Translations under genes and position numbers: made by a program
Source: Dictyostelium discoideum
Taxonomy: Eukaryota
Reading direction: 5' to 3'
NCBI GenBank assembly: GCA_000004695.1
Contig: CM000151.3
Coordinates: 4,224,001 to 4,288,000, forward strand
DNA length: 64,000 bases
Part shown: piece by piece, positions 54,392-59,887 of the stretch
Position numbering within the stretch: position 1 is the first letter of the stretch
Layout: each line of letters begins with the position of its first letter
Notes under the pieces: generated by a model
Told to the model about the DNA's origin: nothing
Databases searched by the model: none
Seen by the model: only the letters and a program-made list of their open reading frames with translations

Positions 54392-55653
54392 ATGCAATTC
54401 GTTGTGGCAAATAGACATATAAAGGTATATTTTTTTTCCCAAAATAAAAAATAAAATAAAAAAAATAAAAAAATAAAATAAAAAAAATAAAAAATAAAAA
54501 ATTTACTTATTCTTTTAAAAAAAAAAAATAAAAAAAAAAAAAATAAAAAAGCAATTTTCAAAAAGTTTGCAATGTATTTCAAGGATAGGTGATGATTTAT
54601 ATATTGAAGGTAGACAAGAATATATTAAATTTACAACAGTTAATAACTCGAAATCAGCATTTGTAGTATTTCAATTCTCAAACTCATTCTTTCATTCCTA
54701 TAGTTTAGAAGGAGATGAAGGTATACAGTATAAGGCAAAGTCTAAACTTTGTTTTCAAATGTTTCATTCATTAAGTAACATTGATAAATGTGCAATGAAA
54801 ATCGATTTAGAGGGAAAGATATCATTCTACCTTTTATGTAAAAATGGTATTCAAAAGACATACTCTATAAACTATGAATTATCACAATTACAAAGTGCTG
54901 TTTACAATAAGAATAGTCCTTATAAAATCTCTGTTAAACCAAAACAAATCTCTGACTGTTTAAATTATTTCGCTTCAAATACTGAAGAAATCTCAATTAA
55001 TCTTCAAAGAGATCGTTTATTAATTAAAAGTTCAACTGATGATAAAAGTAAGTTTTTATATTTTTTATATATATATTTATATATTTAATACTAACAGTTT
55101 TTTTTTTTTTTTTTTTTTTTAGGAGGATTAAAGAATTTATTCACAGAACTAGTATTAGATCGTAGTGATTTTGATGAATATGATTTTAATGGTGATGGAG
55201 AGGAGATTTCATTCAACTTTAAAGATTTAAAAACTATTATGGCATATGTTGATGTTATAAATAATCCTTGTACTTGGTTTATAGAAAGGGCTGGTTTACC
55301 ATTTCATATTAATTTAAAATATAGTTCAACTTATGAAGTTGATTTTGTATTAGCTACATTACAAGATAGTTCACAACCAAATGATGATCGTCAACAATAT
55401 CAACAACAATATCAACAACAATATCAACAGCAGCAACAACAACAACAATACCAACAACAGCAACAGCAACAACAATATCAACAACAGCAGCAACAACAAC
55501 AACAACAATATAGAAATAGTAATACAGTAGGATCATCCCCATTATCAATGAATACAAGAAATACACCACAACAATATAGAAATAGTAATACGGTGGGATC
55601 ACCAAGTGTAGGACAATCAAATCAACAATATCAACAACAACAGCAACAATATC

Positions 55654-55686
<33 letters not shown>

Positions 55687-56036
55687 ACTCACCAAACCAA
55701 AACAACATGTATGATGATGATGATGGAATGGATATGGGACCAATTGATCATGATTTAAGTCCTGCTATTAACTATGGTGATTCAAGAACTTCTCAACAAC
55801 CACAACAAATACAACAACAACAACAACAACAAATGCAACCACATTACAATAATCAATCAATGCCACCATCATCATTAGGTTCAACTTCAAGTTATTTAAC
55901 AACAAATAGTAAAAAACCTGTTATCAGTTATCGTGGTATAAACTTGGAGGCTGATGACGATGATGATGATGAAGAAAATGGTTTTAATCAAAATGAAAAT
56001 GAAGAACAAAATATTCAAAATAGTCAAAATCAATAA
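54392..56036 (+). CDS. rad9: Cell-cycle checkpoint protein Rad9 (9-1-1 clamp subunit) of about 480 aa, join(54392..54424, 54552..55047, 55123..56036)
   Basis: The spliced N-terminus MQFVVANRHIK|QFSKSLQCISRIGDDLYIEGRQEYIKFTTVNNSKSAFVVFQFSNSFFHSY matches the start of human RAD9A ([53 protein letters not shown]). Intron 1 is a GTATAT donor at 54425 paired with an AAAAAAG acceptor at 54551 (127 nt). Intron 2 is a GTAAGT donor at 55048 (phase 1) paired with a T20-AG acceptor at 55122. The third exon has ...DFVLATLQDSS followed by a Q-rich, low-complexity C-terminal tail. Confidence 0.8.
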
Positions 56037-56120
56037 ACATGTATAATAATAATAATAATAAAATTATTTTAAAATTAATTAAATAAAATTTTTTATTTTT
56101 CCATATTATTTGTATTACTT

Positions 56121-59100
56121 TTAAGTTGTTTTAAAAAAATAAGAACTTCTGTATTGAGAGTTATAATCTTGATTTTGGATTGTTAAACCAACTGCAACCA
56201 TTAAAAAGAATAAGATAACTAAAATTATTAAAAAGAATAAAATATTCTATAATTTTTAAAAAAAAAATAAAATAAAAAAATAATGGGATTAGTATAACAT
56301 TTTTTTTTTTTTTTTTTTTTTAATTTAAAAATTAATTTACTTACTATACAAATACTACTTCCTATATTACTACTACTACTACTACTACTACCAACTTTCT
56401 TTGATTTTAATTTATTATTATTATTATTATTTTTAATATTATTATTATTATTAATATTATTTTTATTTTTTAATTGAGTTTCAATAAATTGTTTAATTTC
56501 TTCTTGTTGTTTTAAAAAGTTTGACTGAGCATCTTCTAAAGTATTTTTAAGATTTTCAGCTCTTTCTCTTTCTCTATCTTTTTCTTTTCTTATAAATTCT
56601 TCATTTTCATCGATTTCAACCAATTTACCCATGATTGATTCAACATTTGTACTAATGATTGTATTGGTTTGTTCTTGATTTTTACAGATTTTTTCGAATA
56701 AAACTTCAATTGTATTCATTGATATAATTAAATTACTTTCAATTGAAGATGATGATGATGATTGTGTTGATTGTTGTTGTTGTTGATTATTATTTACAAT
56801 TGTTGGGAATTGAATTTCCAATTTATTTGTTAGTGTATCTATTTGAGTTTTTAAATTTTTTAAAATTAAAGTTTGTTCAGTATGTTTTGATCTCGCTAAA
56901 TCAATTTCTTTTTGAAGGGATTTCTCACGTTCTATATGTTGATTTGTAAGTGATGAAATATTTAATTTTAATTTTTTAATCTCTTCTAATGATTCATTAT
57001 TATTATTATTTAATGATGAATTTGATAAAGAATCAACTGAATTTGAATAAGTACTTTGTAAAATATTTAAACGATCTTGTAATTCTTTTGATTGACGTAC
57101 GACCTCATTACATTTTGATTTCCATTTTTGTTTATTTGATTCTAATGTATTTATTCTTTGATCTTTATCAGTTGATTCTTCTAAAGCTTTTGTTAATTTT
57201 AAACGAATTTCATCAGATTCTGATTTTGAATTCAATAAAGCATCTTTTAATTTTAATTCCAATTGTTTGGATTTTTCATTTGAATCATGAAGATCATTTA
57301 CTAATTGTTGACGATGATTAAATGATTTTTGAATTTCTTCATTTGTTGCTTGATATTTTTGAGAGTATTGTTCAATCTTTAAGAGTTGCTCTTGATTTAT
57401 TTGTTTTGAAAGCTCCAATTCTTGTGTTAGGATTTCAATTTGTGATACATTATTTTTATTTAAAACATTAAATTTTTTTGGTAGATCTGAATTCTCTTCC
57501 TCTAAATTAATGATATCCTCTTGAAGACGGTCATTCTTTTTTTTTAATTCTTCACAGGCATTTTGTAGTTGTGTAATGTAGGTTGCAACCGATGATGGTG
57601 GTATTACACCACTATTAATTGAAATTTTCTCTATGAATTTCTTGTAGGTTTCAATATCTTTATTTAGTTCACGTAATTTTGCTTTCAATTCTGAATGAGA
57701 TTCTTCAACGTTTTGTAATGGTTTATTCTTAACAGATTGAGCACGTTGACCGAAATTTAAAGATTGAATGGTTTCTCTTATGACTGATTCATGATTTGAA
57801 CTTGAACAATTTACAATTAAACATGTCTTTGAATTACCACCAAAACATTGTTGTAGTAATTGAGTTAGCTTACTATCTCTATATCTAACATGTTTGGAAT
57901 TCTTTGACATATCTTCAATCACACCACCCAAGGCATACAATGATTTATTGATTGATTTTGTCTCTTCAATCTTTGATGTTGTGCCATCGATTTTTGATGC
58001 ACTTTCAGAGCCTGCCAAATCTACTAAATACAACAATGATGTAACGGTCATTTTATTCTCTAAATCTTCCTTTAACAATGATACTATGAATATTGCATGA
58101 CTTCTACTACTTGCCATATTCTTTTTGGTTTCTGCTATCTTTCTATTCTTTTCAATATGTTGTAAATGTGTTAGAAAATCTGTAAATGTTTGAATTGATG
58201 ATTGAACTGCATCTGGTACTATAAATCCACCATCTGCCATTCTAATCTCAATATCATTCACTCCACCCTCTGATAGCAAATCATAAACTTTCTCTTTGTA
58301 AACCTCTAAATATGATATTTTAGTTGTAAATTTAATACGTTGTGGTGTATTCATTGATTGTTGTTCATCTTGTTTAATAAATAAATCTTTAATAATTCTT
58401 GGCATAATACCCCATGATGATGGTAATAGTTGTTGTTGTTGTTGTTGCTGTTGGCTTCCATATAAATAATGACTATTATTATAAAATTCAGATCTATTAC
58501 AATATGAATTATAAGAATCATTACCCTCACCACCAGAGAAACCTAATGAAAATGTTTTACCTGCACCAGTTTGACCATAGGCTATAATACCAACATTATA
58601 ACCATTAACAATATTATCAATCAATGGTTTACCAACTTCATTATAAAATGATTCTTGAGTAGTATTTGGTTGATAAACTTTTGAGAATCTAAATGCTTGT
58701 GCCATTGAACTTGATGATGATGATGTTGGTGTAATATGAATAGTTGTTTGATCAGTTCCAATTGTTAATTGTTTCTCTGATGGTCCTAATGTTTGTTCAG
58801 CTGCTGTCTCTGGTCTAAATCTACATACTGCTTGAATACTTTCTTCTCTATCACTAAATAATGGTTGAGTTTTTGATGTAATATTAACACCACCAACTGA
58901 ATTAAAATTTTGAATTGGTGTTCTTCTACCACTAATTGATGATGATGATGGTGTTGGTGATGGTGATGATGATCTATTATTTAAATTTAAATGATTATTA
59001 TTATTATTATTATTACTACCATTGTTTAAATGTGAACTTGGTGATAAACTATTACTATTAATACCATTACTTGTATTTAAAGTATTATTAGTTGTAGTCG

Positions 59101-59887
59101 TAGTTGTTGTAGTTGTAGTTGTGAGATTATGTTGATTAAATCCTTCCATTAATGATAATTCTGGTGGTGGTGAAGTTGTAGAAATAAACATTGTTGGTGA
59201 AGGTGTAGATGTTGATGAATTTGAATTTACTAAATGATGATTACCATTTCCACCACCACTATTACTAAGTGGATTATTGCCATTATTTGTCGATGAAGGT
59301 AAACTACTAAATGCTGTATTGCTTGATGTTGAAAGTGTAACTTTTTGATTTTGACTTAAAATTTCAGAATTATTACTCTCTAACATTGATGAAATATTTG
59401 TTGATGTTACATTATTACCATTACTACCATTATTATTATTATTATTATTATTAGTGGTATGATTTGGTTGAGGTGTTGATGGTCTTGAACCTAGTGATGT
59501 AGTTGTAGTTGTTGATATGAATGATGAATGACGTTTTGAAGGATCTTTTTTTGCACTTAATTGTTGTGATGGAGGTAGGGGAATTGATGATGGCGGTAGT
59601 AGTGATGAATTCATCGATAGCCTTTTCTTTGAAGATTGTGACATTGGTGTCGATAATGAATCCATATTTAAGGTTTTCTTTGCATTCTCCATCGTTGAGA
59701 ATACCAATGATCCTTTACCAATACTATTAGTTATCGATGATGTAGTAGCAGTGGTACTACCATTTCTTGGTGTTGATATTGATGATGTTGATGGTGATGA
59801 ATTTGATCTTGACCTTAATTGACCGCCAGTAGTTGAATTTATCGTTGGTTGTTTAGGTGTTGAAAAATTATTATTATTATTATCCAT
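56121..59887 (-). CDS. kif9: Kinesin with an internal motor domain and a C-terminal transmembrane anchor, 1222 aa, consistent with Dictyostelium Kif9. Model is join(56345..59887, 56121..56246) on the minus strand.
   Basis: The first ATG is at 59885-59887; the ORF-track start at 59902 is GTG. An S/T/N-rich N-terminus of about 350 aa precedes the motor, which has the P-loop GQTGAGKT, switch II DLAGSE, and VCRFRPE... A long coiled-coil stalk follows. A GTAAGT donor at 56344 (phase 0) pairs with an ATTATAG acceptor at 56247, giving a 98-nt intron. The final 41-aa exon encodes NILFFLIILVILFFLMVAVGLTIQNQDYNSQYRSSYFFKTT*, a single TM helix. Confidence 0.85.

What the first reader, a model, noticed from the sequence alone, without database searches (positions are those of the whole stretch)
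56121..56345. Kinesin C-terminal transmembrane anchor encoded by a separate 126-nt terminal exon
The ORF track runs through the intron and gives a spurious poly-K/F tail. Splicing GTAAGT at 56344 to AG at 56247 instead appends a 41-aa exon containing one clean TM helix, NILFFLIILVILFFLMVAVGLTI. That makes this a tail-anchored kinesin of 1222 aa with an internal motor. This architecture is rare among kinesins and matches what is known for Dictyostelium Kif9, a nuclear-envelope-anchored protein that links the centrosome to the nucleus.
Basis: partly seen in the sequence, partly recalled or inferred. Interest (0 to 1): 0.6.

Follow-up and report, generated by a model that had tools for sequence, protein, structure and literature searches.

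The report
Known Dictyostelium Kif9 membrane-anchor exon
The small terminal exon is real, but it is the already curated and experimentally studied membrane anchor of the Dictyostelium discoideum kinesin Kif9, which ties the centrosome to the nuclear envelope, so the finding is correct but not new.

Summary
Every coordinate in the finding checks out. On the minus strand there is an ATG at 59887. Exon 1 runs to 56345. A 98-nt GTAAGT...ATAG intron spans 56344-56247 (92% A+T, phase 0). A 126-nt terminal exon spans 56246-56121 and encodes 41 residues with one strong transmembrane (TM) helix.

The spliced 1222-aa product is identical, residue for residue, to UniProt Q555I8 / XP_644079.1, D. discoideum "kinesin family member 9". 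The window therefore contains kif9 itself, not a look-alike.

Hydrophobicity alone proves nothing in this genome: 16% of short stop-free segments in the window look equally TM-like. The real support is comparative and published:
- Five dictyostelid species, plus two further D. discoideum-group genomes, have a phase-0 intron directly before an invariant Asn. That Asn opens a 33-41-aa TM exon carrying a conserved [LM]MVxVG motif.
- Reviews describe the ~23-residue TM domain, its nuclear-envelope targeting and the centrosome-detachment knockout.

Side results:
- The motor is kinesin-1-like with a kinesin-1-type neck linker. It is not a sequence-level kinesin-13, although reviews label it so.
- The annotated Heterostelium album Kif9 model misses this exon.

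Verdict: already known; low interest.

The parts
56345..59887 (-). kif9 exon 1 (codons 1-1181; first ATG at 59887)
   Evidence: Uninterrupted ORF. Joined to exon 2 it gives a protein identical to XP_644079.1/Q555I8.
59579..59590 (-). SxIP motif (SSIP, aa 100-103) in the low-complexity N-terminal extension (aa 1-~345)
   Evidence: Regex on the orthologue alignment: SSIP in D. discoideum, SGIP at the aligned place in D. purpureum. The N-terminal SxIP is mentioned in PMC11816917.
57731..58822 (-). Kinesin motor domain (aa 356-719)
   Evidence: Pfam PF00225, E=7e-84, full-length profile match 1-327/327. Best solved relatives are kinesin-1 heavy chains, 196-202 bits.
57704..57733 (-). Kinesin-1-type neck-linker-like segment VKNKPLQNVE (aa 719-728), followed by a long helical stalk
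   Evidence: phmmer alignments run through it: Kif9 RAQSVKNKPLQNVEESHSELK vs N. crassa kinesin RAKSIKNKAKVNAELSPAELK and human kinesin-1 RAKTIKNTVSVNVELTAEQWK. Conserved in D. purpureum as SVKNKPQVNVE. The stalk helices come only from a low-confidence model.
56396..56413 (-). Basic cluster KLKSKK (aa 1159-1164) on the cytosolic side of the TM segment
   Evidence: Sequence and alignment. Consistent with an N-terminus-in-cytosol orientation (inference from the positive-inside rule).
56247..56344 (-). Intron: 98 nt, GTAAGT...TTATAG, phase 0, 8% G+C
   Evidence: An intron sits at the identical position in five species plus two more D. discoideum-group genomes, 62-98 nt long, all GT..AG.
56300..56321 (-). 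A22 tract inside the intron
   Evidence: Runs of 21-23 A in the three D. discoideum-group genomes, 8 A in D. purpureum. It could cause oligo-dT internal priming on unspliced RNA.
56288..56292 (-). Branch-point-like CTAAT, 42 nt upstream of the 3' splice site
   Evidence: CTAAT, CTAAC or CTGAC is found at 21-45 nt from the 3' splice site in 6 of 8 introns compared.
56178..56246 (-). Transmembrane segment NILFFLIILVILFFLMVAVGLTI (aa 1182-1204), the first 23 codons of the terminal exon
   Evidence: Kyte-Doolittle peak 3.37; the only hydrophobic segment in the protein. The [LM]MVxVG motif is conserved across Dictyostelia.
56124..56177 (-). Short C-terminal (luminal) tail QNQDYNSQYRSSYFFKTT (aa 1205-1222)
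   Evidence: The tail is 13-18 aa in all orthologues, Tyr-rich in most, and always ends in Ser or Thr. It has no PPPX.
56121..56123 (-). Stop codon TAA

Best explanation
The region is the 3' end of the Dictyostelium discoideum kif9 gene. A 98-nt spliceosomal intron separates the long first exon from a 126-nt terminal exon. The first exon encodes a low-complexity N-terminal extension with an SxIP motif, the motor domain, the neck linker and a helical stalk. The terminal exon encodes a single transmembrane helix plus an 18-residue tail.

The product is a tail-anchored kinesin. The motor and stalk face the cytosol, the helix spans the outer nuclear membrane, and the short tail lies in the perinuclear lumen.

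According to published experiments, this anchor places Kif9 in the nuclear envelope, where it concentrates next to the centrosome. Its motor engages centrosomal microtubules and keeps the centrosome pressed against the nucleus, probably together with Sun1.

Shown here: the gene structure, the identity to Kif9, the single C-terminal TM segment, and conservation of the exon and intron across Dictyostelia.

Taken from the literature: nuclear-envelope localisation, the knockout phenotype and the Sun1 dependence.

Inferred: post-translational insertion as a tail-anchored protein, the orientation in the membrane, and a specific role for the conserved [LM]MVxVG-TIQ end of the helix and the tail.
For: Identity and gene structure:
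- The spliced product is identical to XP_644079.1/Q555I8.
- BAC56911.1 matches at 1221/1222 residues with the same tail.
- Splice signals, phase and composition: intron 8% G+C against exon 2 at 20%.

Conservation:
- Exon 2 is 100% identical at the nucleotide level in three D. discoideum-group genomes, while the intron varies between 78 and 98 nt.
- D. purpureum keeps the exon with 16 identical, 6 synonymous and 14 non-synonymous codons, and has the intron at the same phase-0 site.
- C. fasciculata, A. subglobosum (two paralogues) and H. album all have a GT..AG intron immediately before an invariant Asn that opens a 33-41-aa TM exon.

Protein features:
- Motor domain at residues 356-719.
- Only one hydrophobic segment in the protein.

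Published function: PMC11816917, PMC8534566, PMC7140473 and PMC3507195.
Against: No transcript data could be examined here, so splicing in D. discoideum rests on the curated model, the independent DdKin2 deposit and conservation. I could not verify whether the DdKin2 record is an mRNA. The primary papers (Tikhonenko et al. 2009 and 2013) are not held in the library, so the functional statements come from reviews. A direct Kif9-Sun1 interaction is stated to be unproven (PMC8534566). The structure model is poor, with mean pLDDT 39.9, and adds little.
Confidence: 0.93

Rival explanations
1. The intron is not removed (or the transcript ends within it). The main product would then be a soluble kinesin ending in the Lys/Phe-rich read-through tail, and the downstream 'TM exon' would be a chance hydrophobic ORF in A+T-rich DNA.
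For: Hydrophobic, TM-like stretches are very common by chance in this window: 106 of 657 short stop-free segments reach a Kyte-Doolittle value of at least 3.0. No RNA evidence was available.
Against: The read-through tails are not conserved and differ in length: 39, 12, 17 and 39 residues in the four genomes checked. The TM exon is conserved in five species plus two further D. discoideum-group genomes, with synonymous changes, an invariant first Asn and a shared MVxVG motif. The spliced product equals the curated protein and an independent deposit. Published GFP fusions of the TM domain go to the nuclear envelope (PMC11816917).
Confidence: 0.02
2. The anchor is as described, but the motor does not work as a kinesin-13-type depolymerase. 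It would be an N-type, kinesin-1-like motor with a conventional neck linker. It would act as a nuclear-envelope-bound microtubule tether or slow walker, and centrosome-nucleus cohesion would come from lateral or end-on holding of microtubules, possibly together with dynein.
For: Against human KIF2C the motor scores only 83.5 bits, the lowest of 118 kinesins compared; the best non-orthologous kinesins score about 155-196 bits. The kinesin-13 signature motifs KVD (loop 2) and KEC (helix alpha-4) are absent; Kif9 has LGGVI where kinesin-1 has LGNVI. No kinesin-13 chain appears among the top 60 PDB matches. A kinesin-1-type neck linker followed by a helical stalk is conserved.
Against: Table 1 of PMC7140473 lists 'MT depolymerize' as the measured activity of Kif9. 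A plus-end walker fixed on the nucleus would be expected to push the nucleus away from the centrosome, the opposite of what the knockout phenotype implies. Sequence class does not by itself decide the activity.
Confidence: 0.25
3. The terminal exon is a generic ER or tail-anchor signal with no specific partner. Nuclear-envelope enrichment would come only from microtubule and centrosome capture by the motor.
For: In a Kif9-null background, or in HeLa cells, the TM domain alone spreads evenly over the nuclear envelope rather than concentrating at the centrosome (PMC11816917). The tail lacks the KASH PPPX motif.
Against: The luminal end of the helix ([LM]MVxVGx[TI][IL][QE]) is conserved far more than a generic anchor requires; the terminal Ser/Thr is kept in all six orthologues and tail tyrosines in most. 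Sun1 loses its pericentrosomal concentration in the knockout (PMC11816917, PMC3507195).
Confidence: 0.3

Closest known systems
Dictyostelium discoideum Kif9 (kif9, UniProt Q555I8, XP_644079.1; also deposited as DdKin2, BAC56911.1)
   Same: Identical sequence over all 1222 residues once the proposed intron is removed. Same internal motor, C-terminal TM domain and SxIP motif as described in PMC11816917.
   Different: Nothing; this is the gene itself.
Kinesin-13 / Kin-I (MCAK/KIF2C, KIF2A, Klp10A)
   Same: The motor lies in the middle of the polypeptide. Microtubule depolymerising activity is reported (PMC7140473 Table 1). Reviews place Kif9 in this family (PMC11816917, PMC8534566).
   Different: The motor sequence is the most distant of 118 kinesins compared, at 83.5 bits. 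KVD and KEC are absent. A kinesin-1-type neck linker follows the motor. The true D. discoideum kinesin-13 is listed as Kif6 (PMC7140473).
Kinesin-1 heavy chain motor (N. crassa 1goj, Drosophila 2y5w, human KIF5B)
   Same: Best-scoring solved relatives, 196-202 bits. P-loop, switch I and switch II are shared. The neck linker aligns, VKNKPLQNVE against IKNKAKVNAE / IKNTVSVNVE.
   Different: Kif9 has a ~345-aa low-complexity N-terminal extension, a D. discoideum-specific insertion after the P-loop, no light-chain or cargo-binding tail, and a transmembrane anchor.
KASH-domain proteins of LINC complexes (nesprins, UNC-83, Klarsicht; plant WIPs)
   Same: C-terminal TM helix in the outer nuclear membrane with a short luminal peptide. 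Functional coupling to a SUN protein (Sun1) and to the microtubule cytoskeleton. Ends in Thr or Ser, as animal PPPT and plant VPT tails do (the animal and plant tail motifs are from my own knowledge).
   Different: No PPPX or VPT motif; the tail is only 13-18 residues. The motor is covalently part of the anchor, rather than being recruited through a light chain. A direct Sun1 interaction is unproven (PMC8534566).
Tail-anchored membrane proteins in general (e.g. Sec61-beta, cytochrome b5)
   Same: Single TM segment within the last ~40 residues, no signal peptide, and the bulk of the protein in the cytosol.
   Different: Very large (about 1180-residue) cytosolic motor and stalk. The insertion pathway has not been studied here.

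Membership tests
D. discoideum Kif9 (Q555I8) | Sequence identity to the curated protein | tested here: met
   Exact look-up: the 1222-aa spliced product is the cluster representative carrying XP_644079.1, EAL70194.1 and UniRef100_Q555I8.
Kinesin superfamily | Kinesin motor domain with P-loop GQTGAGKT, switch I SSRSH and switch II DLAGSE | tested here: met
   PF00225, E=7e-84, covering the whole profile. The motifs are visible in the alignments.
Spliceosomal intron | GT..AG borders, composition distinct from the exons, position conserved in orthologues | tested here: met
   GTAAGT...ATAG; 8% G+C against 20% in exon 2. Same phase-0 position in five species plus two further D. discoideum-group genomes. 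Branch-like CTAAT present.
Spliceosomal intron | Removal from the mature mRNA | not testable with these tools
   No transcript data available. Supported indirectly by BAC56911.1, whose molecule type I could not check.
Tail-anchored membrane protein | Single TM segment close to the C-terminus, no other hydrophobic segment and no signal peptide | tested here: met
   All Kyte-Doolittle windows above 1.6 start at residues 1171-1190; 18 residues follow the helix; the N-terminus is polar.
Tail-anchored membrane protein | Post-translational insertion (GET/TRC40-type pathway) | not testable with these tools
   Inference only.
Kinesin-13 / Kin-I | Motor located internally in the polypeptide | tested here: met
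   Motor at residues 356-719 of 1222.
Kinesin-13 / Kin-I | Class-specific KVD finger in loop 2 and KEC in helix alpha-4 (motif definitions from my own knowledge of the family; both located in the KIF2C sequence that verified against PDB 2heh) | tested here: not met
   Neither tripeptide occurs in the motor. The aligned positions read TIHIT and LGGVI.
Kinesin-13 / Kin-I | Motor sequence closest to kinesin-13 motors | tested here: not met
   83.5 bits to KIF2C, rank 118 of 118. No kinesin-13 chain among the top 60 PDB matches, which are kinesin-1, -2, -4, -5, -7, -10, -12 and -14.
Kinesin-13 / Kin-I | ATP-dependent microtubule depolymerisation | not testable with these tools
   Listed as the activity of Kif9 in Table 1 of PMC7140473; the primary paper is not held.
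KASH domain | TM helix followed by a ~30-residue luminal peptide ending in PPPX (feature from my own knowledge) | tested here: not met
   The tail is 18 residues and ends in FFKTT. No PPPX in any of the six orthologous tails. [quoted passage not shown]
KASH domain | Binding to a SUN domain in the perinuclear space | not testable with these tools
   Only indirect published evidence: Sun1 redistributes in the kif9 knockout (PMC11816917, PMC3507195).

The most novel reading that the evidence does not exclude
The terminal exon is an ancient, Dictyostelia-wide module: an invariant Asn, a TM helix ending in [LM]MVxVGx[TI][IL][QE], and a 13-18-residue, mostly Tyr-rich tail ending in Ser or Thr. It would act as a non-canonical, minimal KASH peptide that binds Sun1 directly. 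That would make Kif9 a one-polypeptide LINC-complex motor. Its motor is kinesin-1-like rather than kinesin-13, so the accepted 'depolymerase pulling' mechanism and family label would need revision.
Probability: 0.2. Interest if true: 0.45.

Novelty: already known. Interest (0 to 1): 0.1.

Why it matters
For a genome scan this is a successful re-derivation of a curated gene model, not a discovery. The Kif9 TM anchor, its nuclear-envelope localisation and its role in centrosome-nucleus coupling have been in the literature since 2009-2013 and are covered in recent reviews.

Three modest by-products of the check may be useful:
- The TM exon and its intron position are conserved through all dictyostelid lineages sampled, together with a specific sequence motif at the luminal end of the helix. 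This argues that the anchor is more than a generic hydrophobic tail.
- The 'kinesin-13' label used in reviews is not supported by the motor sequence.
- The public Heterostelium album Kif9 model lacks the TM exon and should be corrected.

Tried and rejected
- Hydrophobicity as evidence. The control shows that TM-like stretches are common by chance in this A+T-rich DNA, so I did not use this as support.
- Poly(A) signal search. AATAAA occurs 838 times in the window, so it says nothing about the 3' end.
- Bacterial-type promoter/terminator scan of 55900-56400. Irrelevant for a eukaryote and at background level.
- tRNA scan of the window: none found.
- Reading the primary Kif9 papers (PMC3594137, PMC2681614): not held.
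- Searching for 'DdKin2' to establish whether BAC56911.1 is cDNA-derived: only one unrelated paper.
I used the D. purpureum protein alone instead.
- AlphaFold model of the D. purpureum orthologue from a four-sequence alignment. Mean pLDDT was 39.9 and pTM 0.26, too poor for fold searches. Only the helical prediction for the stalk and for residues 1125-1149 (the TM segment) is mentioned, as weak support.
- Kinesin-13 membership: considered because reviews state it, and rejected at the sequence level.
- Canonical KASH membership: rejected because there is no PPPX.

Full report
**1. The observation**

Reading the minus strand and rebuilding the gene in a script confirms every coordinate in the finding.
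- The mechanical ORF 59902-56228 begins at a GTG. The first ATG is at 59887.
- The donor GTAAGT starts at 56344, directly after the codon for Ile1181, so the intron is phase 0.
- The acceptor TTATAG ends at 56247.
- The intron is 98 nt, 91.8% A+T and not a multiple of three.
- The terminal exon 56246-56121 is 126 nt. It encodes NILFFLIILVILFFLMVAVGLTIQNQDYNSQYRSSYFFKTT followed by a stop.
- The spliced protein is 1222 aa.
- The hydrophobic peak (Kyte-Doolittle 3.37 over 19 residues) is the only one in the protein.

**2. Is it more than chance?**

Not on hydrophobicity alone. In the six-frame translation of this window, 106 of 657 stop-free segments of 35-120 codons contain a 19-residue window of at least 3.0, and 199 reach 2.5. 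This is because T-rich DNA encodes Phe, Leu and Ile. A sequence-only argument from 'one clean TM helix' would therefore often be wrong in this genome. Three other kinds of evidence settle the matter.

**3. Identity**

The spliced product is present, letter for letter, in the protein collection as XP_644079.1 / EAL70194.1 / UniRef100_Q555I8, 'kinesin family member 9 [Dictyostelium discoideum AX4]'. A separately deposited sequence, BAC56911.1 'kinesin-related protein DdKin2', is 1221/1222 identical. Its single difference (E935V) shows independent sequencing, and its tail is the same. I could not verify whether that record is an mRNA. The window therefore carries kif9 itself.

**4. Conservation**

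Two further D. discoideum-group genomes have exon 2 identical at all 126 nucleotides. The intron, by contrast, differs by indels, being 78 and 98 nt long.

D. purpureum (P0005, 1167 aa, 45% identical) keeps the exon as NILIVIVGIIVLFFLMVGVGLTIQQHDGVPYNSNFYKAT. Compared with D. discoideum it has 16 identical, 6 synonymous and 14 non-synonymous codons. It also has a 62-nt GTATGT...CTATAG intron at the same phase-0 site.

An exhaustive search with the D. purpureum protein found more distant orthologues, which were named:
- Cavenderia fasciculata 'kinesin family member 9' (P0139);
- two Acytostelium subglobosum proteins (P0124, P0128);
- Heterostelium album 'kinesin family member 9' (P0130).

In every genome a GT..AG intron of 62-98 nt lies directly before an invariant Asn codon. 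That Asn opens a 33-41-residue terminal exon consisting of a TM helix plus a 13-18-residue tail.

The luminal end of the helix carries a shared motif, [LM]MVxVGx[TI][IL][QE]; the second A. subglobosum paralogue is more divergent. The tails are mostly Tyr-rich, and all end in Ser or Thr.

Among the roughly 265 kinesins retrieved in the two searches, only these orthologues have a clean C-terminal TM segment. The two exceptions look like model artefacts or fragments. This is consistent with the reviews' statement that the feature is unique (PMC8534566).

**5. Literature**

  - GFP-Kif9 concentrates near the centrosome.
  - The TM domain alone targets the nuclear envelope.
  - Knockout detaches the centrosome and disperses Sun1.
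- PMC8534566, PMC7140473 and PMC3507195 say the same.
- The primary papers (Tikhonenko et al. 2009, 2013) are not held.

**6. Anatomy of the protein, as checked here**

- Residues 1-~345 are low-complexity Ser/Thr/Asn-rich sequence. The SxIP motif is SSIP at 100-103, with SGIP at the aligned place in D. purpureum.
- The motor is PF00225 at 356-719.
- The motor is followed by VKNKPLQNVE, which aligns with the kinesin-1 neck linker.
- A long helical region follows. The helix prediction comes only from a low-confidence model, with mean pLDDT 39.9.
- A basic cluster KLKSKK (1159-1164) precedes the TM helix (1182-1204), and 18 tail residues follow it.
- This is the topology of a tail-anchored protein with the motor in the cytosol. 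The insertion pathway and the orientation are inferences.

**7. Family questions**

Reviews call Kif9 a kinesin-13, or a 'novel Kin-I'. I tested this.
- It scores only 83.5 bits against the Kif9 motor, the lowest of 118 kinesins compared. The best non-orthologous kinesins score about 155-196 bits.
- The kinesin-13 signatures KVD and KEC are absent.
- The top 60 PDB matches contain no kinesin-13 chain and are led by kinesin-1.

At the sequence level, Kif9 is therefore an N-type, kinesin-1-like motor behind a long N-terminal extension. 'Internal motor' is true only positionally. This does not contradict the reported depolymerase activity, which I cannot test. It does lower the claim 'is a kinesin-13' and keeps a tether or walker mechanism open as a rival.

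The tail is not a canonical KASH domain, since there is no PPPX. The conserved helix end and the terminal Ser/Thr still leave room for a minimal KASH-like function.

**8. Verdict**

Novelty: already known. Interest: low.

Two by-products are worth recording. First, the exon and intron are conserved across Dictyostelia, with a specific motif. I do not know whether the primary papers already show this. Second, the H. album gene model is mis-annotated and lacks the exon.

Noticed in passing
L004 5579-5791 (Heterostelium album GL290984.1; kif9 orthologue): The annotated H. album Kif9 (XP_020437644.1, 960 aa) ends ...SLVLLFCK + LIHINNNIDVRLERETNIKYLSICF, taken from an exon about 800 nt downstream. 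Directly after LLFCK lies GTAAGT, then an 81-nt intron ending in AATAG. After it comes an exon encoding NFIILLFVMLLVFILMVCVGKTLEHKDRYKYTFRS*, homologous to the TM exon of all other species. The public model therefore misses the membrane anchor.
   Followed up: yes
window 57731-58822 (-), Kif9 motor: Reviews group Kif9 in kinesin-13. However, the motor scores lowest against KIF2C (83.5 bits, rank 118 of 118), lacks KVD and KEC, is closest to kinesin-1, and is followed by a kinesin-1-type neck linker.
   Followed up: yes
window 54567-56036 (+): The convergent downstream neighbour is a Rad9 checkpoint-clamp homologue. PF04139 hits at 2.7e-58 on ORF 54567-55088 and 3.2e-08 on ORF 55239-56036, so there is an intron between the two pieces. 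It has a long poly-Gln-rich C-terminal region. Its stop codon (56034-56036) lies only 84 nt from the kif9 stop (56121-56123), so the two 3' UTRs must be very short or overlap. The kif9-rad9 convergent pairing is conserved in D. purpureum.
   Followed up: partly
window 56300-56321 (-), inside the kif9 intron: An uninterrupted A22 tract on the transcribed strand. It is 21-23 A in the three D. discoideum-group genomes but 8 A in D. purpureum.
   Followed up: partly
L006 and L007 (Acytostelium subglobosum DF837617.1 and DF837574.1): A. subglobosum has two Kif9-like genes (P0124, 862 aa; P0128, 907 aa). Both have the terminal TM exon behind the same phase-0 intron. The second is divergent and has lost the MVCVG motif (LLVNFN instead).
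   Followed up: partly
window approx. 58420-58545 (-), Kif9 aa ~448-490: A D. discoideum-specific insertion immediately after the P-loop ([38 protein letters not shown]...) is largely absent from D. purpureum and from KIF2C/kinesin-1 in the alignments. It is a low-complexity expansion inside a motor loop.
   Followed up: no
P0122 (D. purpureum XP_003293024.1, 416 aa, 30.6-kb contig): A second D. purpureum protein 93% identical to the motor region of the Kif9 orthologue, sitting on a separate small contig. It is probably an assembly haplotig or a partial duplicate.
   Followed up: no
window, whole: Short stop-free segments with TM-like hydrophobicity are very frequent: 106 of 657 have a Kyte-Doolittle 19-residue window of at least 3.0, many of them poly-Ile, poly-Leu or poly-Val from simple repeats. 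This is a general warning for sequence-only TM calls in this genome.
   Followed up: yes
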